Source of the DNA: Nanobdellota archaeon
Lineage (GTDB): Archaea > Nanobdellota > Nanobdellia > Pacearchaeales > GW2011-AR1
NCBI GenBank assembly: GCA_024654505.1
Contig: JANLHN010000003.1
Location: 4,314-68,313, forward strand
Reading direction: 5' to 3'
Length of the DNA stretch: 64,000 nucleotides
Below the pieces are notes generated by a model. The model worked only from the letters and a program-made list of their open reading frames with translations. It made no database searches and had not been told where the DNA came from. Shown one piece after another: positions 3,303 through 34,342 of this stretch. A program made the position numbers and the translations under genes. The stretch's first letter is position 1. Each line of letters begins with the position of its first letter.

Positions 3303-3758
3303 ATGGCAGGAGATAGAGAAGTTAGCGATATTGAGAAATTGATGGCTAGATCAACAATTAATTTTCCTAGATCAATTGATCATAAAGAAGTTGGTGGCCT
3401 TTTAACTCATGTGGCCAGAGGAATTGGACCTGCTACAACAATTAATTATCGAGTTTCAAGTAATGAGAATATTGTTCCTGAAAGAAATAATTTGGGGAGT
3501 CTTACTGGGAAACATATTTCTGACCCAGGATCTGCAACGACTAGTGGAAATATATCTACTTCCTATGGTGAAGGAAGTGGAGCTGAACTTGCTATAATAT
3601 CTTTTGATTTAAAGAGAGAACATAGAACAGATATTAGAGGATATGATTCAATGAAATTCTTTACAACACCTGGTTATTCTTTAGAAGAACTTAATCCTAC
3701 TGAGTTGAGGTTGATGGATAATGTCCGAGCCCAAGTTAGAGGGTGGTTTGGTGTTTAA
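3303..3758 (+). CDS. hypothetical protein (ATG start; leaderless behind a conserved promoter)
   Basis: The ORF has a conserved CACAATAATTCTTTTAAACC promoter 38 nt upstream of the ATG. The same module precedes the genes at 15293 and 62180. Confidence 0.5.
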   Translation: MAGDREVSDIEKLMARSTINFPRSIDHKEVGGLLTHVARGIGPATTINYRVSSNENIVPERNNLGSLTGKHISDPGSATTSGNISTSYGEGSGAELAIISFDLKREHRTDIRGYDSMKFFTTPGYSLEELNPTELRLMDNVRAQVRGWFGV

Positions 3759-3828
3759 GGTTAGATTATTTTTTCTTCGGCCCGGTATTCTTTCTAGAAA
3801 AGATTGAGTTTTAGAACTAAAACCAAAG

Positions 3829-4729: not shown

Positions 4730-5467
4730 TTATTTAGAACTTTGAATAATATCTAATAATCTACTTTTAATCCTCCTTTTTACTTCTGTTGGACCTTTTC
4801 TTTTACTAAGTATTAAATATAATTCTGCTGCTCTTGCTATTAGCCATGTATTTGTGTCTTCTCCAAGAAGAGAATAATCAAAATCAATATTTGTTCTATA
4901 AATTCTTTCTATCTCCTTCCTTCTATCTGGGTTAGAGATTATCATTGAGGCAACATCTCTCCCAGGATGTCCCAGTCCACTTAACTCAAAATCAAAATAA
5001 TAATTTTGCCCCTGAAATGTGACCATATTTTTGTCCTGTAAGTCTCCATGAAGAATTGTTGTTAATTCCATTTCTACTTTTAAGTCAGATAGTGCTTTTT
5101 CAACAAGAGCCCCAAGTTCACCGAAGGCATCCTTATTTTCAAGAATAAATGAGGCAACAGCCTGTATGTTATGGGGGAATAACAATCGATTATTAGGAAG
5201 GGGATTTTTTATAAAATATGAATGGACTCTTGCCCATTCTGCGGCTGTTTGAAGAATGTCTTTTTTTTCAGTTTCTATAAAATGTGTTTTGAGACAAAGC
5301 CCTTCAACCCCATAAACTTTTGGCGTTCTAACTAATCCTGTTTTTTGGAACAAATCATAAAAGAATAATTCTCTTCTTAGGAAAATTGGCTTTTGGTGTC
5401 TTTTAGATACAATTTTTTGTCCTTCAACTTCGTAAACCTCTGAAAAATTCCGATTAAAATCTTCCAT
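4730..5467 (-). CDS. aminoglycoside/choline-kinase-like phosphotransferase (APH family)
   Basis: Catalytic HGDLQDKN motif (the APH HGD..N motif) and a downstream D-[FY] region. There is a 2-nt gap to the upstream methyltransferase. Confidence 0.6.
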   Translation of the reverse strand: MEDFNRNFSEVYEVEGQKIVSKRHQKPIFLRRELFFYDLFQKTGLVRTPKVYGVEGLCLKTHFIETEKKDILQTAAEWARVHSYFIKNPLPNNRLLFPHNIQAVASFILENKDAFGELGALVEKALSDLKVEMELTTILHGDLQDKNMVTFQGQNYYFDFELSGLGHPGRDVASMIISNPDRRKEIERIYRTNIDFDYSLLGEDTNTWLIARAAELYLILSKRKGPTEVKRRIKSRLLDIIQSSK

Positions 5468-5468
5468 G

Positions 5469-5972
5469 TTAAACCTTTTTGGCCAGAAATAAAATCATTT
5501 TATGTCGATGTGGGGGTTTACCATGTTCTTTGGAAAGCACAGAGGTATTGTAAATGATTTCCCAATCAGGGTATAATTTATTTAATACCTCTTCATCTGG
5601 ATAAAAATAAATCTCGTTTTCTGGATTCTCTTCATTAGACATACAAATTAGAAAGTGGAAGCCTTCTCTAATAGTGTTTTTTTGCATTTTTTTTATTAAT
5701 TGTTTAGCTTCTTCTTCTTTTAACAAATGTAAAATCCCCGTCCCAACAATTAAATCGTATTTCGGCTCGAATTTAAAGTCTAATATGTCTTGTTGGATGA
5801 ATGTGAAATTCTCTGATGATTGGGTTGTGGGTTTTCTATCAATTCCTATTACATTTATTCCCAAGTCAATAAATTTTTGAGAAAATTTACATTTACCACA
5901 GCCGATATCCAAAACAGATGTAGGGTTTAATTTTTGCATAATCTCCACAATTATAGGTTTAGCTGGTTGCAT
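5469..5972 (-). CDS. class I SAM-dependent methyltransferase
   Basis: Motif I VLDIGCGKCKF and motif II IDRKP. Overlaps the radical-SAM gene by 14 nt. Confidence 0.7.
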   Translation of the reverse strand: MQPAKPIIVEIMQKLNPTSVLDIGCGKCKFSQKFIDLGINVIGIDRKPTTQSSENFTFIQQDILDFKFEPKYDLIVGTGILHLLKEEEAKQLIKKMQKNTIREGFHFLICMSNEENPENEIYFYPDEEVLNKLYPDWEIIYNTSVLSKEHGKPPHRHKMILFLAKKV

Positions 5973-7050
5973 CTTTTGTATACCTGTCCTTGAGGTCTCC
6001 TGGTTTAACTAGGTTTCTAAAACACATAGGGTCTTTATTCATAAAATCTCCTGTTGTTGCATATGCTATTGCTCTACATCCCTTACAGTGAGAAACATAT
6101 TCACAACCAAATTCTTTTTTTAAACGCTCCAAATCTCTTAAATCTTTCATGACTTTCTTTTCTGTGATAAGCCTAACTAGTCCTTCACTAATATGCCCTA
6201 TCTCTATTGGGAGTCTTCTACATGGATAAACTACTCCATTAGAAAGAACTGCAACTCCTGAAAATCCTGCACCACAACCCCCTAAATATTTTCCTTTTTC
6301 TCTAGAAGCCTCTTTTAAAGGGTCATCACAATGCATTAAGTGCCATAAGACTTCTGTTTCGAGGAGAGATATTTTATCTCCATATCTTTCTTCTAATTCT
6401 CTTTGGACCTTATAAATATCATACATCCCTTTTGCATCAATAAATTCGGGGTCATTAACTCCCAGCTCTCTTGTTGGAACATAGGACTGAATTCCAAATA
6501 TATCTGCTCCAGCCTCTATAGAATCTTTTATGGCCTGCTCAATATGGTCTTTGTTTGATTGCATGGCTGTAAAAGAGACTGTAACTCCTATATCTTCTGC
6601 CCGACAATTAGCAATACCTTGCATAGCCCTATCAAAGGCATAGGGTCTTTGTCTTACATCATTATGCCTTTCTCTGTCTCCATCAACTGAAATTTGTAAT
6701 CTTTTTATTCCTCTTTCTTTCAATGCTCTTGCTTTTTCAGGTGTTATTAGGGTTCCATTAGTAAGAATTTTTGTGGCTACACCCCTTTGTTGAGTATACT
6801 CTAAGATTTTAAATAAATCCCTTCGCTTTAGAGGTTCTCCACCAGAAATGTGAAACCTTGGGTCCATACCCCATCTTTGAGATGTATCTACAAGATCATC
6901 AACCATGTCTTCTACTTCGGAGAGACTCATTAAGTCAGAGTCTTCTTGTCTATGGGCTTTTTCACCCTTTTCATTATGGTAACAATGGCGACACCTAAGA
7001 TTACAATCATTTGTCGAATCCCATTGAATGAACAGTTGCTTTTTTGTCAT
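5959..7050 (-). CDS. radical SAM enzyme with C-terminal SPASM domain (peptide-maturase type)
   Basis: CNLRCRHC CxxxCxxC cluster at the N-terminus. The SPASM signature GGCGAGF..YPCRR..C..CKGCR..PMC is present. Confidence 0.8.
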   Translation of the reverse strand: MTKKQLFIQWDSTNDCNLRCRHCYHNEKGEKAHRQEDSDLMSLSEVEDMVDDLVDTSQRWGMDPRFHISGGEPLKRRDLFKILEYTQQRGVATKILTNGTLITPEKARALKERGIKRLQISVDGDRERHNDVRQRPYAFDRAMQGIANCRAEDIGVTVSFTAMQSNKDHIEQAIKDSIEAGADIFGIQSYVPTRELGVNDPEFIDAKGMYDIYKVQRELEERYGDKISLLETEVLWHLMHCDDPLKEASREKGKYLGGCGAGFSGVAVLSNGVVYPCRRLPIEIGHISEGLVRLITEKKVMKDLRDLERLKKEFGCEYVSHCKGCRAIAYATTGDFMNKDPMCFRNLVKPGDLKDRYTKDATS

Positions 7051-7102
7051 TTGAATACCTTTCTATCTAAAACAACCTCTTAAATAGGCCCTAATTAAAA
7101 TT

Positions 7103-7285
7103 CTATTTTTCTTTTGAAGCGTAGCGATCGTTGCCATCGCAACTGACACAATTACTGCACCCCGAAACACAGGTATATCCTTCCTGTCTTACTTCGGGCA
7201 TCATGCTAGAGAGATATGCTTCTTCTCCGGCAGTCATTACACTAGGGGCCTCTTCAGCTAAAGCTTCTAAAACCGCATTTACCAT
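7103..7285 (-). CDS. putative RiPP precursor peptide (acidic helical leader plus Cys-rich core CVSGCSNCVSCDG)
   Basis: A 60-aa ORF lies 52 nt upstream of the rSAM/SPASM gene on the same strand. The leader is MVNAVLEALAEEAP.., and the C-terminal 25 aa carry four Cys. Confidence 0.5.
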   Translation of the reverse strand: MVNAVLEALAEEAPSVMTAGEEAYLSSMMPEVRQEGYTCVSGCSNCVSCDGNDRYASKEK

Positions 7286-8336: not shown

Positions 8337-8792
8337 TTAATCAAGCTTTTTTAATAACTCCTTATCTTTATCTATATTCTCTTTTGTTATCCTATTAAAT
8401 TCGGGATGTTCATCTGTAAGTCTTGAATGTGAAGAGAGCCAATTTGTAACTGTTTTTACATCTGTTTTTCCTTGAGCAACACTTCCAGTAACAAAATTAA
8501 TTATCCCTGTCTCAGAGGCATCAATAACTATCGCCCCAGAAGCCATAATTCCTTTTGCTATCTCAAACGCAGTTCTTTTATTTCCATTTTCAAAAGGATG
8601 TCCTGCTCCTGCATAATAAAGAAAATTTCCTGCTTGTTTTATTGGGTCTATTTCGTTATTTACTGAATCTACTGCAAACTCTAAAGTTGACTTATTTATA
8701 ATTCCAAAATTCCCTCCACTAACAGATAAAATATGTTTGTTGTGATTAATTATTTCTTCTGTAGTTCTTTTAATATTTTTAAAATAAGTCAT
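8337..8792 (-). CDS. doc: Doc/Fic family toxin (death-on-curing-like)
   Basis: HPFENGNKRTA matches the Doc variant of the Fic motif, HxFx(D/N)GNKR. Confidence 0.75.
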   Translation of the reverse strand: MTYFKNIKRTTEEIINHNKHILSVSGGNFGIINKSTLEFAVDSVNNEIDPIKQAGNFLYYAGAGHPFENGNKRTAFEIAKGIMASGAIVIDASETGIINFVTGSVAQGKTDVKTVTNWLSSHSRLTDEHPEFNRITKENIDKDKELLKKLD

Positions 8793-9439
8793 CTCCCATC
8801 ACACCACCCGCAACTCTTCTTTGGACAATCTTCGTTCAACAGCTTCAAGGCATCCTTCCAGGCTTTTTCTGCCATTTTGGTGTCAACCCTCATCTTAACT
8901 AGTTCGGTATCAAAGATGACTTCGCCGGTTGTGGCGACTTCTTTTGGAACATAGAATAAAAGGAAGAAGAAGTCTTCTGTTTCATGGCCGATTTTTCTTA
9001 GGAGGAAGTTGTAGGTATTTTGTTGGAGTCTGTAATGTTCTGCAGTATCTTCTTTTAGGGCGTAGCCCCTTGTTTTGTAATCTAGGACGATTAGTTTTTT
9101 GCCTTTGACTAGGATATTATCTATTGCTCCATGAAGTTCGTTTCCGGCCTTGTCTGTGAATGAGATTCCCTTAAAGTTGCTTTGCCAGACTTTCATCTTT
9201 TCTTCATCATCAAATAGCTTCATGTTTGTGCAGTGTTGGTGTTCGCAGAGTTCTGGAGGTAGTTCTCCCTTGTCTCGGAATTTGTTAAAGTGGTGTTTTA
9301 AGATTTTGTCCATGCCCGAGGGAAGAGATGGGAAGGGGCCTGAAGGTCTTTTCCATACTTTGTGTTGTGTAAGCCAGAAACAGCGGGGGCAGTCTTTCAT
9401 GAGATTAATGGCGGAGGGGGAGAGCTTGTGTGTGGTCAT
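8789..9439 (-). CDS. Cas4-like PD-(D/E)xK nuclease with 4-Cys Fe-S cluster signature
   Basis: An N-terminal CPRCFWL Cys is paired with a C-terminal C..CGWC triad. IVLDYKT is the PD-(D/E)xK core. The ATGA 4-nt overlap with doc indicates translational coupling. Confidence 0.6.
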   Translation of the reverse strand: MTTHKLSPSAINLMKDCPRCFWLTQHKVWKRPSGPFPSLPSGMDKILKHHFNKFRDKGELPPELCEHQHCTNMKLFDDEEKMKVWQSNFKGISFTDKAGNELHGAIDNILVKGKKLIVLDYKTRGYALKEDTAEHYRLQQNTYNFLLRKIGHETEDFFFLLFYVPKEVATTGEVIFDTELVKMRVDTKMAEKAWKDALKLLNEDCPKKSCGWCDGR

Positions 9440-9720
9440 TTTTTCTTTAGTTTTATCTCTCCTTTTGTTGCTGTTGCTTCTAATTCATCACCTTCTTTAA
9501 AACCCGAGTCTTTCACTACATCTTTTGGGATTACCACCTCATATTTAGGATATTTCTTTCCCTTTTGAGTATAGTGTTTTTGTAGCTTCATCCCCTTTTT
9601 AAAAGGAAATATTATTTAAAGATATCGGCGCCGAAAGGTTTATAAAGTTTAGGCGCCTAAGTGTTCCATAATTAAAAAGAGTATACAAAACATTTTAAAT
9701 GAAAGAGGTTAGGGGTTGAT

Positions 9721-10782
9721 ATGGAAAAAGAGTGGAAGGCAATAAGCTTATTTGCTGGGTGTGGAGGAGATACCCAAGGTTTAGAGGACGCTGGAATTAA
9801 GGTTGTGGGATTTGTTGAATTCTGGAAGAGGGCAATTGAAACACATAAACTCAATTTTCCAGAATCTACTTTTATTGGGCAAGATGTTGGGGGAGATATA
9901 ACCAAGATTTCTGATGAAGAGTTTAGGAAATATGAGGGGCAAATTGATGTTTTATTTGCCGGGTTTCCATGTCAGGGATTTTCTCATGCTGGAAAGAAAG
10001 ACCCAAACGATACAAGGAATAAATTATTTTGGGAGTTTGTTAGAGCTACAAAATTAATAAAACCTAAATGGATAATTGGAGAAAATGTTGCCGGATTATT
10101 ACATAGAAAAACTGATGATGGGGAAAGTGATGTAGCGGAAGTTATTGTTAAAGCATTTGAAGAAATCGGTTATAAAATGGCTAAACCAAAAGTTTTGAAA
10201 GCGGAAGAATATGGAGTCCCTCAAAAAAGGCGGAGGGTTTTCTTTGTTGGTAGTAAAGAGGGTATAGAGTTTGGTTTTCCAAAACCCTTACACACCAAGA
10301 ATAATTTACCCACAATAAGGCATTTAATTGAACTAACTAATATAAATTCTGTTGAAAGTAATCCCTCAGAGGTTCATGAATTAAAGGAAAAGGATATATT
10401 ATTCTATGATTCTGATGAAGAGCCAACAGGGAAACCACATCCCTATTTATTAATGAAATTAAAAGAAGGGAAAATTTCTTTTGGTAGAAGAATATCCCCC
10501 CACCATATAGAGATGGCAAACTTAGACTCTCCTACCAAGACAATCCATTGTGGATATAGTTTTCAACCAAGATTATATGTAGGAATAAAAAATAATAAAG
10601 GTTTTTTTCTAAGAGATTTTACAAACAAGGAATTGGCACAGATACAGGGCTTTCCAAAAGAATATATGTTCGCGGGGAATCGAGCAGATGTTGTAAAGCA
10701 AATTGGAAATGCTGTTCCTCCAAAACTTGTTGAAGAAATAGCCCGAGAGATTATGAAAAGAGATAAAAAATTGAGTGGTTAA
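9721..10782 (+). CDS. dcm: DNA (cytosine-5)-methyltransferase
   Basis: Motif I FAGCGG, motif IV GFPCQGFS, ENV, QKRRR. Confidence 0.9.
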   Translation: MEKEWKAISLFAGCGGDTQGLEDAGIKVVGFVEFWKRAIETHKLNFPESTFIGQDVGGDITKISDEEFRKYEGQIDVLFAGFPCQGFSHAGKKDPNDTRNKLFWEFVRATKLIKPKWIIGENVAGLLHRKTDDGESDVAEVIVKAFEEIGYKMAKPKVLKAEEYGVPQKRRRVFFVGSKEGIEFGFPKPLHTKNNLPTIRHLIELTNINSVESNPSEVHELKEKDILFYDSDEEPTGKPHPYLLMKLKEGKISFGRRISPHHIEMANLDSPTKTIHCGYSFQPRLYVGIKNNKGFFLRDFTNKELAQIQGFPKEYMFAGNRADVVKQIGNAVPPKLVEEIAREIMKRDKKLSG

Positions 10783-10844
10783 GTTATAATTTTGTCTAGA
10801 TGGAAGTGCATTTTACTTAAATAGCATACACCCCTTTATTATTC

Positions 10845-11687
10845 ATGCCTCAAAAGATAGATTCAATTGGGAGAGCACATGAATGGACTACAGCTTCCCT
10901 TTTAGATGATTCTGAAAATTTAAAGAAGAAATCAAAAGAGTATCTAAATCGGCTTTCATTGAAAATAGATCAAGATAGGGTGATTTTAGCAAGTAAAAAA
11001 GCTTCTGAAAAGATTAGGGAATTAGTGGGACAAGAAATAAAAACTGCCAAAGTTGTTGGGGAGGAAAATAAAAAACAAGGTGGAGAAGATTTCGATATTT
11101 TATTAGAATTGGTGGACGGATCTAGGAAAGGATATTCTCTTAAAACCCAAAATAATTTTAGTGGAGTTAATGTTAGGAATTTTACTCCAAACTCTCTTTG
11201 TAAAATCTTTACGGGTAAGGGATTTGAAGATTTTTTAGATAACGAAGAAAAAAAGAATTATTTGGAATTGGGTGATCTTTATTCAAAAGATATGGTTAAA
11301 TCAGAGGTTATTGGGAAATGGGGAGCTCAAAAATTAGCCGAGATTTTGAGTAGGGAATTTTCTATAGACAAAATATCTTTTGTTAAAAATTTACTTTCAG
11401 AAATGAGGGGAGGAACTAATCTTCTTTTGACTGTGGTTAATAAAAATGGAGAATTTAAGGGTTATTGTACTAAATTTTCTTCCATTTTCGAGAAGCTGAG
11501 AAAGGAACCGGAGAATCTTAGAATATCTTTCCAGGGTATAAGTGTTCTCTTTTATCTAAAAGAGGATAGAATATGTAAGTTTGATATCTATATGCAATCT
11601 ACTAGCTCTGGAAAGAAAAAGAAACTCCGGGGAGTAATAAGGATTGACTTTATTCCCGACAATTCTGGAATTCAAGAAACCTTATAA
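10845..11687 (+). CDS. hypothetical protein; candidate restriction endonuclease or partner of the adjacent MTase
   Basis: Position only, 62 nt after the C5-MTase. No recognisable motif. Confidence 0.25.
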   Translation: MPQKIDSIGRAHEWTTASLLDDSENLKKKSKEYLNRLSLKIDQDRVILASKKASEKIRELVGQEIKTAKVVGEENKKQGGEDFDILLELVDGSRKGYSLKTQNNFSGVNVRNFTPNSLCKIFTGKGFEDFLDNEEKKNYLELGDLYSKDMVKSEVIGKWGAQKLAEILSREFSIDKISFVKNLLSEMRGGTNLLLTVVNKNGEFKGYCTKFSSIFEKLRKEPENLRISFQGISVLFYLKEDRICKFDIYMQSTSSGKKKKLRGVIRIDFIPDNSGIQETL

Positions 11688-11709
11688 ATATCTTCTTCTT
11701 CATCTATTA

Positions 11710-12096
11710 ATGGCTGATGAAAGGGATGTAGTGGTAGTCTCTATAGATGATTACTCTTGGAACATTCTAAAAAAGAAAAACTTTTTTGCCTTTCCAAAAG
11801 GATCGAGGAAGATATTAAAGTATTTTGCGTTTTATACTGGTGGGAAAATTACTCATTATGCTAAGGTTAAATCATTTAAGGAGGCGAGTAAGGGTGAGGT
11901 TGGTTTTGGTTATTGGCTTTACTGTTTTCCAGATGCAAATCCCCCATTCCACCTAGTTCTTTTTGAGCGGATGATTAAATTAAAAAACACTATAAAGAAA
12001 GACAATCTTGGAAGGGGAAGGGGTCATGTTCAGGGTAGGATATATACTACCCTAAACAAACTTCTAAAAGCAAAAACAATTAAAGATTTGGCTTAG
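11710..12096 (+). CDS. hypothetical protein, possibly PUA-like (ASCH/EVE-type) fold
   Basis: ATG MADERD start chosen over the upstream alternative. The beta-rich small protein follows the MTase locus. The fold call is a weak guess. Confidence 0.25.
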   Translation: MADERDVVVVSIDDYSWNILKKKNFFAFPKGSRKILKYFAFYTGGKITHYAKVKSFKEASKGEVGFGYWLYCFPDANPPFHLVLFERMIKLKNTIKKDNLGRGRGHVQGRIYTTLNKLLKAKTIKDLA

Positions 12097-12143: not shown

Positions 12144-12431
12144 ATGGTAAAGAAAAGCCAAGATTCTTCCCAATTGAGTGTTGTAATTGGTATTTGTTTA
12201 ATCTTGGGTTTTATATTATTCTGGTTGAATTCAGGTTCTAGTGACAATTCAAGAATAATTAAGGATTACACTTCTTGTGTTGAATGGTGTGTTTCTGACC
12301 AAGAAACATGTATGTTTTTTAATATAGTCTATGATAACCAAAGAAATGCGTGGATGGACTTTGATGAAGTTGAGTTATGTAATTTGGAACTTGAGGGTTG
12401 TGTGGAGGATTGTGCCCCGAATATAAAATAA
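12144..12431 (+). CDS. small secreted/membrane Cys-containing protein
   Basis: N-terminal TM plus six Cys. Confidence 0.4.
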   Translation: MVKKSQDSSQLSVVIGICLILGFILFWLNSGSSDNSRIIKDYTSCVEWCVSDQETCMFFNIVYDNQRNAWMDFDEVELCNLELEGCVEDCAPNIK

Positions 12432-12958
12432 TGAAAAAGAAAAAATATGATCTAACAGAGGGGGAAGAAATAATAAAAGACTACTTGGATTCGGAAGATA
12501 TCAAATATGAGATCCAAAAGGAGATAGGCCCTTTAATAGAAGATTCTTATGAGAAGAGAATCTCTGACTTTTATTTGACTCAATATAAAGTTCATGTTGA
12601 ATTTTTTGGGCAATGGGGTATAGAAAAACATAAGGCAAGATATAAAGAAAAGAGGGATATTTACCAAAAGAATAAGGTTCCCTGTATTTACTTTTATCCT
12701 GAAAATCTTGGCTTCTTAGATAAAATATTCAAAAGAAGGTTAAAAAAAGTTTTACAGGATAACAAAGCTCTTAGGTGGCAATTATTTAGGTTAAATTGGC
12801 AGATGTTTCAAGAGCAACTTAGTTTATTTGTTGTTTTATTAGTTCTCTTAGTTTTTTATGTCGATGGGACAATATGGAAGGTTTTTTTTAGCCTGGTTGC
12901 ATTGTATCAATTTTATTTGGCAGCGAGAAATTCTTTTTTTAAGAGAATAGTAAAATAG
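12431..12958 (+). CDS. hypothetical protein with C-terminal TM segment
   Basis: ORF; MKKKKYD start taken right after the upstream stop. Confidence 0.4.
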   Translation: MKKKKYDLTEGEEIIKDYLDSEDIKYEIQKEIGPLIEDSYEKRISDFYLTQYKVHVEFFGQWGIEKHKARYKEKRDIYQKNKVPCIYFYPENLGFLDKIFKRRLKKVLQDNKALRWQLFRLNWQMFQEQLSLFVVLLVLLVFYVDGTIWKVFFSLVALYQFYLAARNSFFKRIVK

Positions 12959-29052: not shown

Positions 29053-30333
29053 CTAGGTGAGGGGGAACTCGAGCAGGTCCTTGGTCCAGTCGCCGTTCTC
29101 CATGATGACGACCTCGCGGCCGTCCTGGAGCGTGGCGGTGATGATGGTGTCCATGTCCGAGACCATGACGTCGTGGTGGGTGTTGGACATGTTGCAGCCG
29201 ACTTCCTTCTTCTCCTTGTTGCCCATCTTGTCACCACCCCGGAGAGCGGTGGCGTAGGCCATGCCGGTGGCGACGTGGCACGACGCGTTCTCGTCGTAGA
29301 GCGTGTGCTGGTAGACGCGACCGGTCTGGAAGATGGGGGAGCGCTTGACGGCCACGAGAGCCACCTCGCCGAGGAAGCGAGCTCCCTCGTCGGTGTCCAC
29401 CATCTTCTCGTACGAGTCGAGGTTGTTGCCCTCGATCTTGACGAGCTTGCCCTCCTTGAAGTACAGGACGAGGTTCTCGACCTTGTTGCCGTGGACGATG
29501 CTGGGGCGCGTGCAGCGCAGGACGCCGTTCGCGGTCCGCAGGTCAGGGGTGGTGAAGGTCTCGAACGTGGGGATGTTCAGGGTGACCATCTTGCCCTTGG
29601 CCGTGTCCTTCTTCGCCGAGATCCACTCGTGCTTGGGATGGAAGCCGACGGTGAAGTCGGTTCCCTCGCCGGCGTAGTGGAGGTTCGTGATCCGCATCGC
29701 GTTGAGGCGGGCCGTGACATCCATGAGGGTGTCGACATGTGCGTCCCAGAGCTTGAGGCAGTTGGGCGAGTCGGCGAATGTGAATGAGAAGACGTCGTCC
29801 CAGAGGGCGGCGACAGCCTCGTCCGTCGGGAGGTCCGGGAAGACCTTGGCGGCCCATCCCGGAGAGGGCGGGCCGGCGAGACACCATGCCACCATGCGGC
29901 GGTTGATGCCTTCTTCGCGCCAGCGGTTCAGGAGCGTCATCGTCGTCGTCGTGTAGGCCTGCATCTCCTCTTCGAGGCCCTTGAAGACGTCGGGGTGGTT
30001 CTGGCTTCGGAAGCCCAGGAAGCACCCTTGGGTCTCGATGACGCGTTCCATCTGGATCCGCCGCCACGTGTGTACGAGGTTGCGGTCCTGCTCGGGGGCG
30101 TGGCGCAGCTGGATTGCGGTCAGCATCTCGGAGCCGAACCGGTGGTCCACGTTGCGTGCCCCCAACTTGTAGGCCACCTCGGAGGCCATCTCGGCGAGTC
30201 TGACGTCGGACTCTTCGAAGGCCACGACGACGAACTCTCCTTCTTGGACGTTGAGGCCACGCCTCACGATCAGCTCCACGTAGTTGCGGAGTTTCTCATC
30301 GAAGCTCAGGACCTGGGTCTCTTGGACACTCAT
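29053..30333 (-). CDS. M29 family aminopeptidase (AmpS/aminopeptidase T-like)
   Basis: MSVQETQVLSFDEKLRNYVELIVRRGLNVQEGEFV is a typical M29 N-terminus. The internal ATG with a GGAGGAAGG RBS is chosen over the 24-codon upstream extension. Confidence 0.7.
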   Translation of the reverse strand: MSVQETQVLSFDEKLRNYVELIVRRGLNVQEGEFVVVAFEESDVRLAEMASEVAYKLGARNVDHRFGSEMLTAIQLRHAPEQDRNLVHTWRRIQMERVIETQGCFLGFRSQNHPDVFKGLEEEMQAYTTTTMTLLNRWREEGINRRMVAWCLAGPPSPGWAAKVFPDLPTDEAVAALWDDVFSFTFADSPNCLKLWDAHVDTLMDVTARLNAMRITNLHYAGEGTDFTVGFHPKHEWISAKKDTAKGKMVTLNIPTFETFTTPDLRTANGVLRCTRPSIVHGNKVENLVLYFKEGKLVKIEGNNLDSYEKMVDTDEGARFLGEVALVAVKRSPIFQTGRVYQHTLYDENASCHVATGMAYATALRGGDKMGNKEKKEVGCNMSNTHHDVMVSDMDTIITATLQDGREVVIMENGDWTKDLLEFPLT

Positions 30334-30430
30334 GTGTCTAATTTCCTTCCTCCGTCTGCATACCTCACGCGAGGTTCCGGGCTGCGGACCGGCTATCCTA
30401 AACACCTGTTCAAGATAGGTTGCATTAAGG

Positions 30431-30502
30431 GCTCTTCGTCCCTCCGGCCGAAGAGCTTGTTGTAGAATTGTGGCTGAGCCCTATTTGTATAGCACCGGGC
30501 CC
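30431..30502. repeat. 72-nt intergenic module (hairpin GCTCTTCG..CGAAGAGC plus TATACAAATAGGG), copy A
   Basis: Copy B at 33617-33686 is about 90% identical. Confidence 0.6.
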
Positions 30503-30530
30503 GGGGGTGCTTGTCGGCGTTCGGTTCCGG

Positions 30531-33470
30531 CTAGTCGCGCCGGCCGGTGTTGGGACGCGCGGCCATGATGGCCTCCACGAGTCCTTCCCAGCCCGGCACG
30601 TTGCCGAACACCTTCTGGATGGTCTGGGCCGTCTGGTCCTTGCCGAACATGGCGATCGGCGCACACATCTGTGCGATTTCGGCGAGGACCTTCTTGTCGC
30701 CCAGGTCCTTGAGGGCCGGAGCGATCTTCTCGGACATGACGGAGACGAGAGCGTTGGTGATGTCGCCGTCGTTCTTGGCCTCCTGGAGACGGCGCTCGAG
30801 CTCGATGCCACCCACGCGGAGGTTCTCCTCCGTCTGGGCCTTCTTGCGCTCGAGTTCCGCTGCCGCGATCTTGCTGTGGCTCTCCTGCTCGGCCAGCTTG
30901 GCTTCCAGGCGCTCCTTCTCGTGAAGGATCTCCGCCTGGAGCTGCTTCTCCTTGAGAGCCACGTCGGCCTGGAGCTGCTTCTCCTTGAGAGCCACGTCGG
31001 CTTCCGCCATCGCAGCCTTGAGAGCCACGTCGGCTTCCAGCTTCGTGGTGGCCAGCTTGGCCTCCCTCTCCGCCGCCACCTTCTTCATCGCGAAGTTGGC
31101 GTCGTCTTCGAAGGTCCTCTGGTCCAACTTGTCTTCCTGGTCCTTCTTCGCCATCGCGGTCTTGGCACCGATCTCGGCGAGTGCGAGCGACGTCCTGCGC
31201 TCGATCTCCTCCTCCTTCAGTTCCGCGATCGCCCTTGCGGTCTTGGCCCTTTCGTCTTCCTTGCTGCGCTCGATCTCCTCCAGCTTCGTGGTGAGCTCGA
31301 GTTCTCTGCGAGCGGCCTTCAGCTTGAGAGTGCCGGTGACGGCCTCCAGCTCCGCCGCACGCAGTTCTTCTCCTACCGTTCCGTCGACGATGCGGATCGC
31401 TTCGATCTGCACCTCCTTGATGTGCATCCCGTTCTCCGGGAAGGTGCGGCCGGGACGCTTGCCGTCTGCGCCCTGCTTCCCGATGATGGCGTCCCTGACG
31501 ATGTTGATGCCCACATCGTGCATCTCCTCGACCGAGTGGGTCGAAGCGATGTTCCGAAGGAGGCTCCGCATCGTGGCGACGAGCAGCTGGATGTAGTTCT
31601 CGACTGAGAACCAGAGATCCTTGTGCTCCTTCAGGAAGTCCACCGTGTAGGCGATGCGGACCTTGAACTGGACGAAGTCCCTCGTCTCGACCGTGACCTC
31701 GTCTGAGACGGGGTTGTTGGCGATGCGGAGGTACACGTCCTCCTTGACCTTGTCGTCGGTCTTGGGGGTTCCGGTGAGCAGCTTGAAGATGGTGACGCCT
31801 TCGTCGTACTCAAGGAGTACGGTTTCCGGACCCACCACGACCTTCTGCTCGCCCGTCTTGGAGGTCACCTGGACAGCGTATCCCTCGTAGACCGAGACGC
31901 CCACGGCGCCCTGGAACCTCGTGTCGAGCTTGAGACTCCGGGGAGGAGTGAATGCACCGCGACGGCTGATCTCATCACCGGCGAACTTCTCCTCGGCGTG
32001 GCTGCCGATGGGGGCAGCGTAGGCCTCTTCGCAGAACTCCTCCGAGCCCCTCCGACGACCAGCGGTGAACGAGGCCGCCCGCAGCATCGCGGACTGGCTG
32101 CCCATTGCCTTGGAGATCTCCCGGAGTTGCCGGTTGTGCACCTGCGCTTCCATGTTGCCGGGGAAGAGCAGGTTGACGAGGCGGTCGGTCAGACCCCTCA
32201 CGATGTGGACCTGCCTGCGGGGGTCCGCCAGGAAGAGCTTCGGACCGCGGATGAGAGTTATGGTCCCCTCAACCTTGTCCAGGACGTATCGACCCTCACC
32301 CTTCGGGATGATGACGGCGAAGTGCTTCTCCTGCTTCTCGCCGCTCTCGTTCTCGTAGGTGATGACCGCGTGCTCGGGTCGGGGGAAGTAGATCTTCGTG
32401 TCCCTCCCCGTGATGAAGAGCTCTTCACCCTTCGTGTATGTCCTTCCGTTCTCCGTGTACTCCTCGATGACCTTGACGTGGATGCCCATGTCATCGTTGA
32501 GCTCGATCGCGCGGAAGACGCGGCTGCCCTCGTCGCTGGTGACGAAGGTCTCGGTGCTCTTGGGGAACACCACCCTGGGACCGCGGAGGAAGCGCTTCTC
32601 GCCGTTCTCGCCGAGGAGCACGCAGAACTCCATGGTTTCCAGAGTCACGGCCGAACGGACGTACTTCTCCTTCCCGTCCTCGGGGATGACGCGACCGCCG
32701 GTCGGCGGGATGAAATAGGAGTACACTGTGCCCTTGATGACGACCCGCTGGCCGCGTGTGTAGGCGGCCTGCTCGAGTTCGTCTTCGGGTTCTCCGGCGG
32801 AAGGCTCTTCCGAAGAGGTGTTACCACCTTCGTCGTCGCCATCGTCGCCATCGAGCGTGGGCTCGGTGTCTTTGATGCTCTGCTCGCCGCCGCCGGTCTG
32901 CCCTCCACTTCCGGTCTGCTCGCCGCCGCCGGTCTGCCCGTGCCTGGTGCTGCTCTGCTCGGATGTGGGGACGACCCGGTCGATGACCGCGGTCTTCATG
33001 CCCTCCTCGAACTGCTCCGGGTTCGTGATCTCGAGAACCAGGAACTCGTTCGTCTTGAGGACGTGTCCCGGGACGACCTGGACCTTCTGGCCAGGCCACA
33101 GCGGGATGGAGATGGGGCCGGGGATGTTGACGGTCTTGCCCACCTCCAGTCGTTCCCCCGAGTTCTTCGTACCGGTCTCCGGGAGCTTCCGGTTGCTGAT
33201 AGGGGTAGGGTTTGCCAGCACCAGGTAGGACTTCTCGTCAGCCGTGGCGAATCGCTGCTTCGCCTTGTCCGCCGGCGCCTCCACGAACCTGTCGTCTCCG
33301 TCCAGGACGACGACCTTGTCGTCGCTGGTGAGGTTGACCAGGCAGGGACCGACCCAGACCCGGACATCTCCCTTTTTGGTGTCCTGCACCCAGATGAACT
33401 CGTTGGGTGCCAGGGGAATCTCCAACTCTCTTGGAGTTGTTCCCCTCCTCAGGTCCTGCTCTCCGTTCAT
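30531..33470 (-). CDS. Major Vault Protein homologue (MVP repeats, shoulder domain and a coiled-coil cap helix)
   Basis: Shoulder-domain matches to metazoan MVP: [24 protein letters not shown] against [45 protein letters not shown] against [22 protein letters not shown], and WFSVENY..RNIAS..EEMHD..IVRDAI. A long E/K/A-rich helix sits at the C-terminus. Confidence 0.8.
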   Translation of the reverse strand: [979 protein letters not shown]

Positions 33471-33475
33471 GTCTA

Positions 33476-33615
33476 ACTTCTTTCCGCTCTTGCGAGCATG
33501 AGCCTACTCTCTTCCCACGAGATTACACAATGAGTGTTTTCTCGCTTGACTTCTTGCACCATGCAAGTTCCTGGGCTTAGAACCAGGCGCACCTTGGAAG
33601 GTGTGGTGGGTTAGA
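33476..33615. repeat. 140-nt 5' leader/promoter module, copy 1 (upstream of the MVP gene)
   Basis: Near-identical (2-3 mismatches) to 34343-34483. It contains the inverted repeat TTGCA-CCA-TGCAA. Confidence 0.7.
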
Positions 33616-33616
33616 G

Positions 33617-33686
33617 CGCTCTTCGTCCCTCCGGCCGAAGAGCTTGGTTGTAGAAATGATGGGCCCTATTTGTATAGCACCGGGCC
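33617..33686. repeat. 72-nt intergenic module, copy B
   Basis: See 30431-30502. Confidence 0.6.
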
Positions 33687-33710
33687 CATTGGTGCACGCC
33701 GTCGCCGAAG

Positions 33711-34337
33711 CTACGGGTTCTTGACTGGGGCGGCGATACCTGCGGGTGTCTTCCCGGGAGGGGTGGCCGCGGGTGCCTGACCGACTCCGGCAGGGGTCCG
33801 CTGGATGGGCTGGGCTCCCTTTGGGTCCTCTCCGCGGGGGTCCACCTTCTCCATCTTGGCGAACTCGAAGTCCGTCGTCCAGATGGTCATGTTGTCGTCT
33901 CCTCGCCGGAGGAACTTGGCGTCCTTCGTCGTGAACTCCAGCCACAGCGGACAGCCGTTCCGGAACAGGTTGCACAGGTTCTCTGCGGTGGCCTTGTCGA
34001 CTTGCTGTTCGCAGCGGATTCGCTGCTCGCTCGCGTCGTAGGCCTCGAACCAGATGTTGACTGGGAGTTCCTTGCCCTTGATGATCCGGATGGCTCCCAC
34101 GTTCCATCCGTCGAGGGTCCACTCTCCCGAGGTGGGGAGGGAGGAAGTGTAGACGACCGGGGCCGGCCTGGGGGCGGGCACCGGAGCCGGAACAACAGGG
34201 GTCGGGGCCGGAACGACTGTCAGGGTCGTGGTCGGCCGGTCGAGAGCGTGGCGGTCGCAGTTCTGGTGGCGATCGGTCATGCACCCGGTGAGGGTCAGGC
34301 TGGCGATGAGGGCCAGTGCGAACAGGATGCGCTTCAC
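33711..34337 (-). CDS. lipoprotein (signal peptide with lipobox LTLTGC)
   Basis: MKRILFALALIASLTLTGC, a Pro/Ala-rich linker and a GTG start. Confidence 0.55.
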   Translation of the reverse strand: MKRILFALALIASLTLTGCMTDRHQNCDRHALDRPTTTLTVVPAPTPVVPAPVPAPRPAPVVYTSSLPTSGEWTLDGWNVGAIRIIKGKELPVNIWFEAYDASEQRIRCEQQVDKATAENLCNLFRNGCPLWLEFTTKDAKFLRRGDDNMTIWTTDFEFAKMEKVDPRGEDPKGAQPIQRTPAGVGQAPAATPPGKTPAGIAAPVKNP

Positions 34338-34342
34338 GGGAT

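What the first reader, a model, noticed from the sequence alone, without database searches (positions are those of the whole stretch)
8337..12096. Cas4-like nuclease translationally coupled to a Doc/Fic toxin, beside an orphan C5-MTase and two unknown genes
The Doc-family gene has the HPFENGNKR motif. It is normally paired with a small Phd antitoxin. Here the upstream partner, overlapping by 4 nt (ATGA), is a 216-aa PD-(D/E)xK nuclease with the Cas4-type four-cysteine signature: N-terminal CPRCFWL, C-terminal C..CGWC, core LDYKT. There is no CRISPR array and there are no cas genes.

Divergently transcribed is a Dcm-type methyltransferase, followed by a 280-aa and a 130-aa protein of unknown function. 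The latter could be the restriction or modified-base-reading component.

Together this looks like a compact defence island with an unusual nuclease-toxin coupling. The pair may be a new toxin/antitoxin or abortive-infection module.
Basis: partly seen in the sequence, partly recalled or inferred. Interest (0 to 1): 0.6.

Follow-up and report, generated by a model that had tools for sequence, protein, structure and literature searches.

The report
Defence island: Cas4-like nuclease plus Doc
A small DPANN archaeon carries a defence-gene cluster where a lineage-typical Cas4-like nuclease sits just upstream of a Doc toxin, next to a probable restriction-modification system; the toxin lacks a normal antitoxin and recurs after such nucleases in relatives, so the pairing is a testable lead rather than a proven new system.

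Summary
All ORFs, motifs and the 4-nt ATGA overlap are as described.

- **Nuclease.** It belongs to a large Nanoarchaeota family of Cas4-like (PF12705) "solo" nucleases. Its flanks vary between genomes and are rich in restriction-modification (RM) genes, as already published for DPANN. Only 1 of 75 other species has this Doc next to it.
- **Doc.** From the small Doc subfamily's side the link recurs. In 8 of 16 contexts a PD-(D/E)xK nuclease from one of three families lies directly, or one gene, upstream. Seven contexts have an RM operon upstream.
- **Antitoxin.** The subfamily has no Phd-like partner. It carries a conserved 30-aa C-terminal tail that weakly resembles the tails of antitoxins of related Docs (p~0.01).
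- **AbrB.** It lacks such a tail, and its homologues sit divergent from methyltransferases. It is more likely a regulator.
- **Methyltransferase.** It is probably not orphan. The only known homologue of the 280-aa protein is again linked to an orthologous C5 methyltransferase.

Verdict: a real defence island made of known parts, with an unreported but unproven nuclease-Doc association.

The parts
8337..8792 (-). Doc-family (Fic-fold) kinase-type toxin gene, 151 aa. Doc-type motif HPFENGNKR at residues 65-73. Residues ~121-151 form a subfamily-specific C-terminal extension (...EHPEFNRITKENIDKDKELLKKLD).
   Evidence: Pfam Fic 32 bits and TIGR01550 33.7 bits. A profile of the subfamily hits P1 Doc structures 3k33 and 3dd7, and 9vzc. 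The tail is conserved in 23 of 25 aligned sequences. The tail resembles antitoxin tails: hhalign P = 0.009, and 3 of 300 shuffles reach the score.
8789..9439 (-). Solo Cas4-like PD-(D/E)xK nuclease, 216 aa (PF12705 branch). Motifs: CPRC, GAxD, LDYKT, QxxxY, C-terminal CxxC. Overlaps Doc by 4 nt and the AbrB gene by 4 nt.
   Evidence: PDDEXK_1 39.8 bits. 3465 homologues, mostly ~215 aa, from Nanoarchaeota, Pacearchaeota and Woesearchaeota. AF2 model pLDDT 86.7. Best folds are the AdnAB nuclease domain, Cas4 in Cas4-Cas1-Cas2, RecE, MGME1 and lambda exonuclease. GC 43.6% against 30.5-32.7% for the two flanking genes.
9436..9591 (-). AbrB/MazE-type swapped-hairpin DNA-binding protein, 51 aa (domain only). 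First gene of the AbrB-nuclease-Doc operon.
   Evidence: PF04014 32.8 bits. TIGR01439 AbrB 25.9 bits. TIGR02609 doc_partner 25.8 bits, covering model positions 12-43 of 74 only. Homologues of 53-55 aa in L018 and L108 sit divergent from methyltransferases and are not next to Doc.
9592..9720 (.). 129-bp divergent promoter region between the AbrB gene and the methyltransferase gene. It holds two ~22-nt direct repeats (9638-9659 and 9612-9634). Each is a GGCGCC hexamer followed by a TATA-like box.
   Evidence: Sequence read. The same two-repeat layout, with a different GC-rich hexamer, lies upstream of the AbrB homologues in L018 and L108. GGCGCC occurs only 4 times in the ~56 kb of low-GC sequence, and 2 of them are here, 25 bp apart. 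The operator and promoter roles are inferred.
9721..10782 (+). C5 cytosine DNA methyltransferase, 353 aa (type II MTase).
   Evidence: PF00145 E = 3.8e-71, TIGR00675 215 bits, PADLOC MTase_II E = 1.5e-78. Closest solved relatives are 3g7u, M.HaeIII and M.HhaI. A 62%-identical orthologue lies in L104.
10845..11687 (+). 280-aa protein, candidate cognate restriction endonuclease.
   Evidence: Only 2 proteins in the 5.8-billion-sequence database: itself and P0122 at 47% identity. The P0122 contig L104 also carries the orthologous C5 methyltransferase. Conserved ED-x-D...GYSLK falls on consecutive predicted strands in a low-confidence AF2 model, pLDDT 59.6. No Pfam, PADLOC, PDB or fold match.
11710..12096 (+). 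128-aa protein of an uncharacterised small-domain family, possibly a DNA-binding or base-reading accessory.
   Evidence: 28 representatives in 1.84 billion clusters, mostly 125-135 aa. The domain is fused C-terminally to an HhH-GPD glycosylase (P0177) and to an HSDR_N/Mrr_cat-like nuclease (P0178). No Pfam or PDB match. Absent from L104.

Best explanation
The region is a variable defence island of a DPANN (Nanoarchaeota-type) archaeon. It is built around a resident "solo" Cas4-like nuclease gene.

**One arm.** A type II RM unit: the C5 methyltransferase, the 280-aa candidate endonuclease and a 128-aa accessory DNA-binding domain protein.

**The divergent arm.** A three-gene operon.
- A 51-aa AbrB-type protein comes first. 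It most likely binds the repeated boxes in the shared 129-bp promoter region and regulates transcription. It lacks the toxin-binding tail of true AbrB-type Doc antitoxins.
- The nuclease comes second. It probably degrades DNA ends and works alongside restriction.
- A Doc kinase-type toxin comes last.

**How Doc is controlled.** Doc is not half of a classical Phd/Doc pair. Its subfamily has swapped the upstream antitoxin for a conserved C-terminal tail that resembles antitoxin tails, which suggests self-inhibition in cis. The subfamily has repeatedly been recruited behind PD-(D/E)xK nucleases at the end of RM operons. The most likely role is a latent translation-blocking back-up effector linked to the RM and nuclease machinery, following the logic of the PrrC guardian.

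**Shown:** gene identities, operon layout, recurrence of the pairing, absence of a tailed antitoxin.

**Inferred:** regulation by AbrB, cis-inhibition, any nuclease-Doc cross-talk, the defence phenotype.
For: **Nuclease family and its setting**
- It is a large Nanoarchaeota family of ~215-aa proteins.
- Of 75 immediate neighbours, many are RM genes: N6_Mtase 6, ResIII/SWI2_SNF2 4, N6_N4_Mtase 3, HSDR_N 3, HsdM_N 3, Methylase_S 3, C5 MTase 2. Fic matches 2. PIN and EVE neighbours also occur.
- The nuclease gene is GC-richer than its flanks in 57 of 64 loci. This fits a resident gene with acquired AT-rich neighbours.
- The literature already reports solo-Cas4 in most DPANN genomes and adjacency to RM genes in several (PMC5704561).

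**Doc subfamily contexts**
- PDDEXK_1 nuclease upstream: window, L013, L107, L109/L110, L111.
- DUF2779 upstream, a Cas4-like plus DEDD exonuclease fusion (PMC13621843, PMC3985635): L106, L112.
- Endonuc_Holl upstream: L115.
- That makes 8 of 16 contexts. The genes overlap by 4-19 nt in five of them, and the gap is 1 nt in L115 and 30 nt in L106. An N6-MTase RM gene or operon lies upstream in 7 of 16.
- Doc-linked nucleases are scattered across the nuclease tree, and Doc and nuclease identities do not track each other. This points to repeated recruitment.

**Antitoxin evidence**
- At least 13 of 20 distant Doc homologues have a small upstream antitoxin ending in ...KEYGExLKLLGRE.
- The window's subfamily has none. 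Its own tail ends ...ENIEKDKELLKKLD (hhalign P = 0.009; 3 of 300 shuffles reach the score).
- The window's AbrB covers only positions 12-43 of the 74-position doc_partner model. The L092 antitoxin covers 4-72.
- AbrB homologues in L018 and L108 are divergent from methyltransferases and share the two-repeat promoter layout.

**RM pair.** The methyltransferase and the 280-aa gene are linked in both known instances.
Against: - No experiment or structure supports cis-inhibition. The tail similarity covers 14 columns at p~0.01, and a PDB profile search with the tail found no antitoxin.
- Half of the Doc contexts lack any nuclease, and only 1 of 75 other nuclease loci carries this Doc. The pairing could therefore reflect shared residence in one recombination hot spot.
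- The 16 Doc contexts come from short metagenomic contigs of related lineages and are not phylogenetically independent.
- In the window itself Doc is not inside an RM operon. It lies divergent from one.
- The L013 Doc has Gln in place of the catalytic His, so that copy may be decaying.
- The nuclease assignment of the 280-aa protein rests on linkage and a motif only. Its AF2 model is poor and its fold search gave nothing.
- DUF2779 genes on four bacterial plasmids are not next to Fic or Doc genes.
Confidence: 0.5

Rival explanations
1. Chance neighbours. The nuclease is a resident repair or defence gene whose flanks are a hot spot for acquiring foreign genes. Doc, AbrB and the RM genes are independent cargo with no functional link to the nuclease or to each other. 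The 4-nt overlaps only reflect genome compaction.
For: - The nuclease flanks are hypervariable on both sides in the 75 species loci.
- Only 1 of 75 other loci has this Doc.
- Nuclease and Doc phylogenies are incongruent.
- The flanking genes are AT-richer than the nuclease.
- 4-nt overlaps are common in these genomes: 11% of same-strand gene pairs.
- Integrases and DDE transposases lie nearby.
Against: - Doc also follows DUF2779 and Endonuc_Holl nucleases. These are different genes at other loci, so a single hot spot does not explain them.
- 8 of 16 Doc contexts have a PD-(D/E)xK nuclease directly or one gene upstream.
- The -4 overlap downstream of the nuclease is enriched: 12 of 39 against 50 of 445, Fisher p = 0.0017.
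Confidence: 0.25
2. A new nuclease-toxin module. The Cas4-like nuclease occupies the antitoxin position. It binds and silences Doc, or relieves Doc's autoinhibition, and releases the toxin when it engages foreign DNA ends. This would be a two-component sensor-effector abortive-infection system.
For: - The nuclease lies upstream of the toxin, overlapping it, as antitoxins do.
- The arrangement recurs with three nuclease families.
- The subfamily has no tailed antitoxin.
- The catalytic residues of the nuclease are intact in the window's copy and invariant in an alignment of 18 family members that includes two Doc-linked copies, window and L013.
Against: - Eight of 16 Doc homologues have no nuclease partner, so they must be harmless without it.
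- The nuclease family is overwhelmingly Doc-free.
- No co-variation or co-phylogeny is seen.
- No interaction evidence of any kind was obtainable here.
Confidence: 0.15
3. A classical AbrB-Doc type II toxin-antitoxin system with a passenger gene. The 51-aa AbrB protein is the Doc antitoxin and autorepressor. The nuclease gene has simply come to lie between the two, giving a tripartite operon.
For: - AbrB/MazE domain above the Pfam threshold, and a weak hit to TIGR02609 doc_partner.
- It is the first gene of the same operon, with translational coupling throughout.
- AbrB-type antitoxins do partner distant Doc homologues, for example L092.
Against: - The protein ends exactly at the end of the DNA-binding domain and lacks the ~30-aa tail that covers model positions 44-74.
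- None of the other 15 Doc-subfamily contexts has an AbrB gene adjacent to Doc.
- Its closest homologues (L018, L108) head operons without Doc and sit divergent from methyltransferases.
Confidence: 0.1

Closest known systems
Solo-Cas4 / Cas4-like PF12705 nucleases of DPANN archaea (Hudaiberdiev et al. 2017, PMC5704561)
   Same: A stand-alone ~215-aa PD-(D/E)xK nuclease with conserved cysteines, no CRISPR context, widespread in Pacearchaeota and Woesearchaeota, and often adjacent to RM genes. The paper reports exactly this context for several DPANN genomes and infers an uncharacterised defence role.
   Different: The window's protein falls in the PF12705 branch, not PF01930. It has a CxxC...CxxC cysteine pattern. 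The recurrent downstream Doc gene is not described in that paper.
Phd/Doc of phage P1, and AbrB-type 'doc_partner' (TIGR02609)-Doc type II toxin-antitoxin systems
   Same: The Doc core has the Doc-type motif HxFx(D/N)(A/G)NKR. The subfamily profile matches P1 Doc structures. An AbrB-domain gene lies in the same operon.
   Different: No antitoxin lies directly upstream. The AbrB protein lacks the neutralising tail. A 216-aa nuclease lies between the two. Doc itself carries a 30-aa C-terminal extension absent from P1 Doc (126 aa in the solved chain 3k33).
Class II/III Fic proteins with an inhibitory helix in cis (Engel et al. 2012, cited in PMC13621843; own knowledge)
   Same: The idea is the same: the element that blocks the Fic-fold active site can sit on a separate antitoxin or on the enzyme's own N- or C-terminus. 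Here a tail resembling antitoxin tails sits on the C-terminus of Doc.
   Different: The canonical (S/T)xxxE(G/N) motif is not conserved in the tail. The -4 position is R, Q or K in most members. Cis-inhibition has not, to my knowledge, been described for Doc-type kinases, and it is untested here.
PrrC/EcoprrI and RloC 'RM guardian' toxins (reviewed in PMC12707154)
   Same: A translation-targeting toxin gene is embedded in or attached to an RM operon. In 7 of 16 Doc-subfamily contexts an N6-MTase RM gene or operon lies upstream on the same strand.
   Different: The toxin is a Fic-fold kinase, not an anticodon nuclease. A small nuclease lies between RM and toxin. In the window the RM unit is a divergent type II system. 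Activation by RM inhibition is pure inference.
Controller (C) protein-regulated type II RM systems such as PvuII (own knowledge)
   Same: A small DNA-binding protein gene is divergent from the methyltransferase gene, overlaps the next gene in its operon, and has repeated boxes in the shared promoter.
   Different: The fold is AbrB rather than HTH. The gene it precedes is a conserved exonuclease-type nuclease, not the candidate restriction enzyme, which lies downstream of the methyltransferase.

Membership tests
Cas4 (COG1468 / PF01930 / TIGR00372) | Profile score above the family threshold | tested here: not met
   TIGR00372 scores 19.3 bits against a cut-off of 65. No PF01930 hit at E < 0.1. 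PADLOC Cas4 models reach only E = 3.6e-7 to 6e-4.
Cas4 (COG1468 / PF01930 / TIGR00372) | PD-(D/E)xK catalytic motifs (D...D/ExK, QxxxY) | tested here: met
   GAxD, LDYKT and Q..Y are invariant in an alignment of 18 homologues spanning 33-82% identity.
Cas4 (COG1468 / PF01930 / TIGR00372) | Four-cysteine Fe-S module in the canonical 1+3 layout (C...CxxCx5C; layout from own knowledge of SSO0001) | tested here: not met
   The conserved pattern is an N-terminal CPRC plus a C-terminal CxxC. The C-terminal CxxC is in 62 of 62 and the N-terminal CxxC in 61 of 62 full-length homologues. A third C-terminal Cys occurs only in the closer subgroup, with spacing Cx4CxxC. Metal or cluster binding is untested.
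Cas4 (COG1468 / PF01930 / TIGR00372) | Fold similarity to solved Cas4 structures | tested here: met
   AF2 model pLDDT 86.7. Foldseek hits Cas4 in 7mi4 and 8d3l at E = 4e-5 to 1.6e-4 with TM ~0.45. The AdnAB nuclease domain and RecE score about equally, with MGME1 and lambda exonuclease slightly behind. The protein belongs to the superfamily branch and is not specifically Cas4.
Cas4 (COG1468 / PF01930 / TIGR00372) | Association with cas1/cas2 or a CRISPR array | tested here: not met
   No array-like repeats in the window. No cas family appears among the 25 most frequent Pfam families of the 75 immediate neighbours.
PD-(D/E)XK nuclease PF12705 (PDDEXK_1; AddB/RecB-like, Cas4-like) | Pfam gathering score | tested here: met
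   39.8 bits against a cut-off of 22, residues 92-213.
Doc (death-on-curing) branch of Fic proteins | Fic fold with the Doc-type motif HxFx(D/N)(A/G)NKR | tested here: met
   HPFENGNKR at residues 65-73. F, G, N, K and R are invariant in the subfamily. Pfam Fic 32 bits, above the cut-off of 24. The subfamily profile hits P1 Doc 3k33 at E = 9e-5 and Doc 9vzc at E = 9e-6.
Doc (death-on-curing) branch of Fic proteins | NCBIfam TIGR01550 cut-off | tested here: not met
   33.7 bits against 38.65, covering model positions 5-121 of 122. This is a near miss and marks a divergent subfamily.
Type II toxin-antitoxin pair (Phd/Doc or AbrB-Doc) | Small antitoxin gene immediately upstream of the toxin, carrying a C-terminal toxin-binding tail | tested here: not met
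   The gene directly upstream is the 216-aa nuclease. The AbrB ORF is domain-only, covering TIGR02609 positions 12-43 of 74. At least 13 of 20 distant Doc homologues do have tailed antitoxins.
Type II toxin-antitoxin pair (Phd/Doc or AbrB-Doc) | The pairing is conserved among homologues of the toxin | tested here: not met
   None of the other 15 Doc-subfamily contexts has an AbrB gene adjacent to Doc. One (L108) has one 2.7 kb away in another operon.
Type II toxin-antitoxin pair (Phd/Doc or AbrB-Doc) | Toxicity and neutralisation | not testable with these tools
   Needs expression assays.
Type II restriction-modification system | Methyltransferase with all C5-MTase motifs | tested here: met
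   PF00145 matches full length (2-324 of 324) at E = 3.8e-71.
Type II restriction-modification system | Adjacent cognate endonuclease | tested here: inconclusive
   The 280-aa protein has no family or fold match. Its only homologue is linked to the orthologous methyltransferase. A candidate ED-x-D...S-x-K motif falls on predicted strands.
RM-linked guardian / abortive-infection toxin (PrrC-like logic) | Toxin gene embedded in or appended to an RM operon | tested here: met
   In relatives an N6_Mtase gene, with or without an S subunit, lies upstream on the same strand in L013, L078, L105, L107, L109, L111 and L115. In the window the RM unit is divergent rather than co-transcribed.
RM-linked guardian / abortive-infection toxin (PrrC-like logic) | Toxin kept latent by the RM or nuclease proteins and triggered by their inhibition | not testable with these tools
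   Needs biochemistry or infection assays.

The most novel reading that the evidence does not exclude
This archaeal Doc subfamily is a single-chain toxin-antitoxin. The neutralising tail that related systems carry on a separate antitoxin has moved onto Doc's own C-terminus. The upstream PD-(D/E)xK nuclease (Cas4-like PDDEXK_1, DUF2779 or Hjc-like) is the sensor. When it engages foreign or restricted DNA ends, it displaces the tail and switches on the kinase. That would be a new nuclease-gated Doc abortive-infection module appended to RM systems in DPANN archaea.
Probability: 0.2. Interest if true: 0.7.

Novelty: new variant of a known kind. Interest (0 to 1): 0.45.

Why it matters
DPANN archaea have tiny genomes, mostly lack CRISPR, and are poor in known defence systems. 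How they resist viruses is an open question. The biological role of solo-Cas4 nucleases is also still unknown, although it was flagged in 2017.

A Doc kinase that has lost its separate antitoxin, carries an antitoxin-like tail, and repeatedly sits behind Cas4-like nucleases at the end of RM operons gives a concrete, cloneable hypothesis. It would address two things: what solo-Cas4 does, and how a Fic-fold kinase can be controlled in cis.

If the association is only a hot-spot effect, the locus is still a useful example of how defence cargo accumulates around one resident gene. In that case it adds no new mechanism.

Tried and rejected
1. **Insertion scars.** I looked for att-like or target-site repeats flanking Doc or the RM unit. 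Only low-identity AT-rich chance repeats turned up.
2. **CRISPR and RNA genes.** There is no CRISPR array. Rfam finds only one tRNA in the window.
3. **Virus-borne origin.** The nuclease occurs on 1 of 2.9 million IMG/VR contigs, and Doc on none.
4. **Phd-like tail by PDB sequence search.** Only chance xylanase hits came back.
5. **Fold of the 280-aa protein.** The AF2 model is poor (pLDDT 59.6) and Foldseek gives nothing below E = 0.08. The PDB profile search was empty.
6. **Other Doc-upstream or AbrB-downstream proteins as relatives of the nuclease.** Profile comparison with L108 (350 aa), L112 DUF2779, L115 and L116 was not significant: E = 0.05-0.44, probability about 1% or less. The DUF2779 and Endonuc_Holl assignments rest on Pfam and the literature instead.
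7. **General DUF2779-Fic linkage in bacteria.** Four plasmid loci show defence-type neighbours (Qat, AAA ATPases, PLD) but no Fic gene.
8. **GC-rich block at 27-34 kb as an rRNA operon.** Rejected. There is no rRNA, and the block encodes proteins.
9. **Structure models.** Doc alone and the Doc-nuclease complex could not be modelled.

Full report
**1. What is in the sequence**

The motifs sit where stated.
- Doc lies at 8337-8792 (-). It is 151 aa, with HPFENGNKR at residues 65-73.
- The nuclease lies at 8789-9439 (-). It is 216 aa, with CPRCFWL at residue 17, LDYKT at 119 and CPKKSCGWC at 205-213.
- The two genes share ATGA.

Profile searches support the family assignments.
- Doc matches Pfam Fic at 32 bits (cut-off 24). 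It matches TIGR01550 at 33.7 bits, just below the 38.65 cut-off.
- The nuclease matches PDDEXK_1 at 39.8 bits (cut-off 22). Its Cas4 hits are weak (TIGR00372 19.3 bits against 65).
- The methyltransferase at 9721-10782 (+) is a full-length C5 enzyme (E = 3.8e-71).
- The 280-aa ORF (10845-11687) and the third ORF have no family match. The third ORF's true start is most likely ATG 11710, giving 128 aa.

- It overlaps the nuclease start by 4 nt.
- It matches PF04014 MazE_antitoxin/AbrB above threshold.
- It matches TIGR02609 "doc_partner" below threshold.

The minus-strand unit is therefore a three-gene, translationally coupled operon: AbrB, nuclease, Doc. It is divergent from the operon of the methyltransferase, the 280-aa gene and the 128-aa gene. 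A 129-bp promoter region separates the two.

**2. The organism and the nuclease family**

The nuclease has 3465 homologues.
- The top 120 are 75-84% identical over about their full length, plus one truncated identical copy. They are ~215 aa long.
- Those that carry a source name are labelled as Nanoarchaeota or unclassified archaeon MAGs.

A scan of one genome per species returned 75 loci, almost all labelled Pacearchaeota, Woesearchaeota or Nanoarchaeota.

The window also encodes PolB, FEN1 and, from reading the ORF translation, a RarA-like ATPase that I did not test. It is therefore chromosomal DPANN sequence.

An alignment down to 33% identity keeps CPRC, GAxD, LDYKT, Q..Y and a C-terminal Cys invariant.
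- All 62 full-length homologues have a C-terminal CxxC, and 61 of 62 have the N-terminal CxxC.
- This is a 2+2 cysteine pattern, not the canonical Cas4 1+3 pattern.

An AF2 model is confident (pLDDT 86.7).
- Its best structural neighbours are the AdnAB nuclease domain, Cas4 in Cas4-Cas1-Cas2 complexes, RecE, MGME1 and lambda exonuclease.
- E-values run from 2.5e-5 to 5e-4, with TM-scores between 0.37 and 0.46.

The protein is therefore an exonuclease-type PD-(D/E)xK enzyme of the RecB/Cas4 branch. "Cas4-like" is a fair description. "Cas4" is not.

**3. The nuclease is not a dedicated Doc partner**

Window proteins were searched against the 75 loci. Doc lies next to the nuclease in only one of them, L013. 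The flanks of the nuclease vary on both sides.

Of 75 immediate same-strand neighbours, many are RM genes:
- N6_Mtase 6
- ResIII/SWI2_SNF2 4
- N6_N4_Mtase 3
- HSDR_N 3
- HsdM_N 3
- Methylase_S 3
- C5 methyltransferase 2

Other neighbours are Fic (2), PIN, EVE and HNH proteins. A few loci show what may be an "empty" site, with MgtE-type transporters upstream and a HAD hydrolase downstream.

Downstream genes overlap the nuclease by 4 nt more often than same-strand gene pairs do in general. The counts are 12 of 39 against 50 of 445, Fisher p = 0.0017.

The nuclease gene is GC-richer than its flanks in 57 of 64 loci.
- In the window it is 43.6% GC, against 30.5% for Doc and 32.7% for AbrB.
- This fits a resident gene surrounded by acquired AT-rich cargo.

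All of this matches the literature. Hudaiberdiev et al. 2017 report that most DPANN genomes encode solo-Cas4. They also report that in several of them adjacency to RM genes suggests an uncharacterised defence role. A biochemically studied solo-Cas4 from Methanosarcina is a metal-dependent dsDNA nuclease.

**4. From the Doc side, the pairing recurs**

The Doc subfamily is small, about 30 proteins at 57-75% identity. I recovered 16 contexts with upstream sequence.

| Upstream gene | Loci |
|---|---|
| PDDEXK_1 nuclease (same family as the window's) | window, L013, L107, L111; also L109/L110 with one 157-aa gene in between |
| DUF2779 protein | L106, L112 |
| Endonuc_Holl (Hjc-related PD-(D/E)xK; PF10107, E = 1.7e-35) | L115 |

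According to the literature, DUF2779 proteins are an N-terminal Cas4-like nuclease fused to a DEDD exonuclease.

So 8 of 16 contexts have a PD-(D/E)xK nuclease in the position an antitoxin would occupy.
- The nucleases come from three families.
- The genes overlap by 4-19 nt in five of the eight. The gap is 1 nt in L115 and 30 nt in L106.

In 7 of 16 contexts an N6-methyltransferase RM gene or operon lies upstream on the same strand. Three contexts have a DDE transposase at the head of the same gene string.

Doc-linked nucleases are scattered over the nuclease tree, and identities are incongruent.
- Window against L013: nuclease 78%, Doc 40%.
- Window against L109: nuclease 67%, Doc 69%.

The pairing has therefore been assembled or reshuffled repeatedly. 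It has not been inherited as a unit.

The other eight Doc genes have no recognised nuclease upstream. Several stand alone (L081, L108, L113). The L013 copy has Gln in place of the catalytic His.

**5. Doc has no classical antitoxin, but it has an antitoxin-like tail**

Distant Doc homologues (26-37% identity, L083-L103) follow the textbook layout.
- At least 13 of 20 have a 45-99-aa gene directly upstream.
- The upstream protein has an excisionase-type HTH, an AbrB domain, or no DNA-binding domain.
- It always ends in a tail of the form ...A-V-x-K-x-x-K-E-Y-G-E-x-L-K-L-L-G-R-E.
- The AbrB-type example, L092, covers the doc_partner model end to end, positions 4-72 of 74.

The window's AbrB covers only positions 12-43. 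It stops where the DNA-binding domain ends, so it lacks the tail.

Every close member of the window's Doc subfamily carries a conserved ~30-aa C-terminal extension ending ...ENIEKDKELLKKLD. This extension is missing from the more distant Doc proteins P0153 and P0154.

I compared a profile of this extension with a profile of the antitoxin tails.
- The two C-termini align over 14 columns (P = 0.009).
- Only 3 of 300 column shuffles reach the observed score.

This is suggestive, not proof.

If the similarity is real, this is a Doc with its neutralising element in cis. Class II and III Fic proteins carry their inhibitory helix on the enzyme in a comparable way.

**6. AbrB looks like a regulator**

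Its closest homologues are 53-55 aa long.
- One is in L018, at 64% identity over the 42 aligned residues.
- One is in L108.
- Both head operons that do not contain Doc, and both are divergent from a methyltransferase gene. In L018 it is a C5 enzyme with a Bsp6I-family endonuclease. In L108 it is an N4/N6 enzyme.

All three AbrB genes are preceded by the same layout.
- Two ~22-nt direct repeats lie about 25-32 nt apart.
- Each repeat is a locus-specific GC-rich hexamer followed by a TATA-like box.
- In the window the hexamer is GGCGCC, at 9627 and 9652. Those are two of only four occurrences in the ~56 kb of low-GC sequence.

The arrangement recalls controller-protein RM systems. That is a resemblance from my own knowledge, not a tested membership.

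**7. The RM arm**

The 280-aa protein has a single homologue among 5.8 billion proteins, P0122 at 47% identity. That contig, L104, also carries:
- a C5 methyltransferase 62% identical to the window's,
- a small ribbon-helix-helix-like ORF divergent from that methyltransferase (my reading of the sequence, not profile-tested),
- an HhH-GPD glycosylase gene.

Extreme rarity combined with conserved linkage is typical of restriction endonucleases. A conserved ED-x-D...GYSLK motif falls on successive predicted strands. However, the AF2 model is poor and the fold search is empty, so the assignment remains an inference.

The 128-aa protein belongs to a small uncharacterised family. Its domain is also found fused to an HhH-GPD glycosylase and to an Mrr/HsdR_N-like nuclease. 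This fits a DNA-binding or base-reading accessory.

**8. Synthesis and verdict**

The finding is real, and it is a defence island. Most parts are known kinds:
- a solo Cas4-like nuclease beside RM genes, as already published for DPANN;
- a C5 RM system;
- a Doc toxin;
- an AbrB regulator.

What appears unreported is the recurrent placement of one Doc subfamily directly behind PD-(D/E)xK nucleases of three families. These usually sit at the end of RM operons. The subfamily has also lost the separate antitoxin and gained an antitoxin-like tail.

My preferred reading has confidence about 0.5. Doc is a latent, self-inhibited back-up effector attached to the RM and nuclease machinery, and AbrB is the transcriptional regulator.

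The main rival is mere co-residence in a recombination hot spot (0.25).

I rate it a new variant of a known kind, with moderate interest (0.45).

Noticed in passing
window 27,450-34,450: A ~7-kb block of 54-66% GC with sharp borders inside a 30-40% GC contig. On the minus strand it encodes a 979-aa protein (30531-33470) with Pfam MVP_shoulder (E = 1.9e-22) and Vault_3 (E = 2.9e-11). That protein matches rat major vault protein structures at E ~7e-17 over residues 522-846. The block also encodes an M29 aminopeptidase (29053-30405) and two ORFs with no Pfam family match. It could be a foreign island or an assembly chimera. A vault-protein homologue on a DPANN contig is odd.
   Followed up: partly
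window 4730-7285 (- strand): A RiPP-like gene string: a 60-aa Cys-rich peptide (7103-7285...CVSGCSNCVSCDGN...), a radical-SAM/SPASM enzyme (5959-7050), a SAM-methyltransferase-like ORF (5469-5972, assigned by eye and not profile-tested) and an APH-type kinase-like protein (4730-5467).
   Followed up: no
window 12398-12958 (+): A 186-aa protein just beyond the RM arm. It matches the C-terminal region of PADLOC candidate PDC-S69 (E = 1.3e-11) and HEAT_CxxC_PD-DEXK (E = 2.5e-6). It may be another defence-island gene.
   Followed up: no
window 9612-9659; L018 ~8510-8570; L108 ~3700-3760: A conserved promoter or operator layout upstream of three AbrB-type genes. Two ~22-nt direct repeats each combine a locus-specific GC-rich hexamer (GGCGCC, GGTCTC, or TCCCC/CCCCC) with TAAA and a TATA-like box. 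The hexamer differs between loci but is repeated within each locus.
   Followed up: partly
L104 59-742 (-) and P0177: An HhH-GPD glycosylase gene sits next to the homologue of the 280-aa protein, in the same contig as the orthologous C5 methyltransferase. Another HhH-GPD glycosylase is fused to the 128-aa domain. This hints at a 5mC-deamination (T:G) repair function attached to these C5 RM systems, as with Mig.MthI (comparison from my own knowledge).
   Followed up: no
L107, L109, L115 (operons upstream of Doc): A recurrent operon: an N6_Mtase/Eco57I-type protein of more than 650 aa (with a weak HSDR_N_2 hit in L109), then a ~450-500-aa protein with no significant Pfam match (possibly a specificity subunit), then a small PD-(D/E)xK nuclease, then Doc. 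The nuclease slot is filled by different families: PDDEXK_1 or Endonuc_Holl.
   Followed up: partly
L069 5049-7140: In one Woesearchaeota genome the same nuclease is flanked by a 314-aa Fic protein upstream (E = 1e-18, gap 7 nt) and a PIN-domain protein downstream (E = 1e-8). In L070 a 313-aa Fic gene is adjacent on the opposite strand.
   Followed up: partly
L013 6627-7085: The Doc copy next to the nuclease in L013 has Gln where the catalytic His of the Fic motif should be (KQPFTNGNKR). It may be inactive.
   Followed up: no
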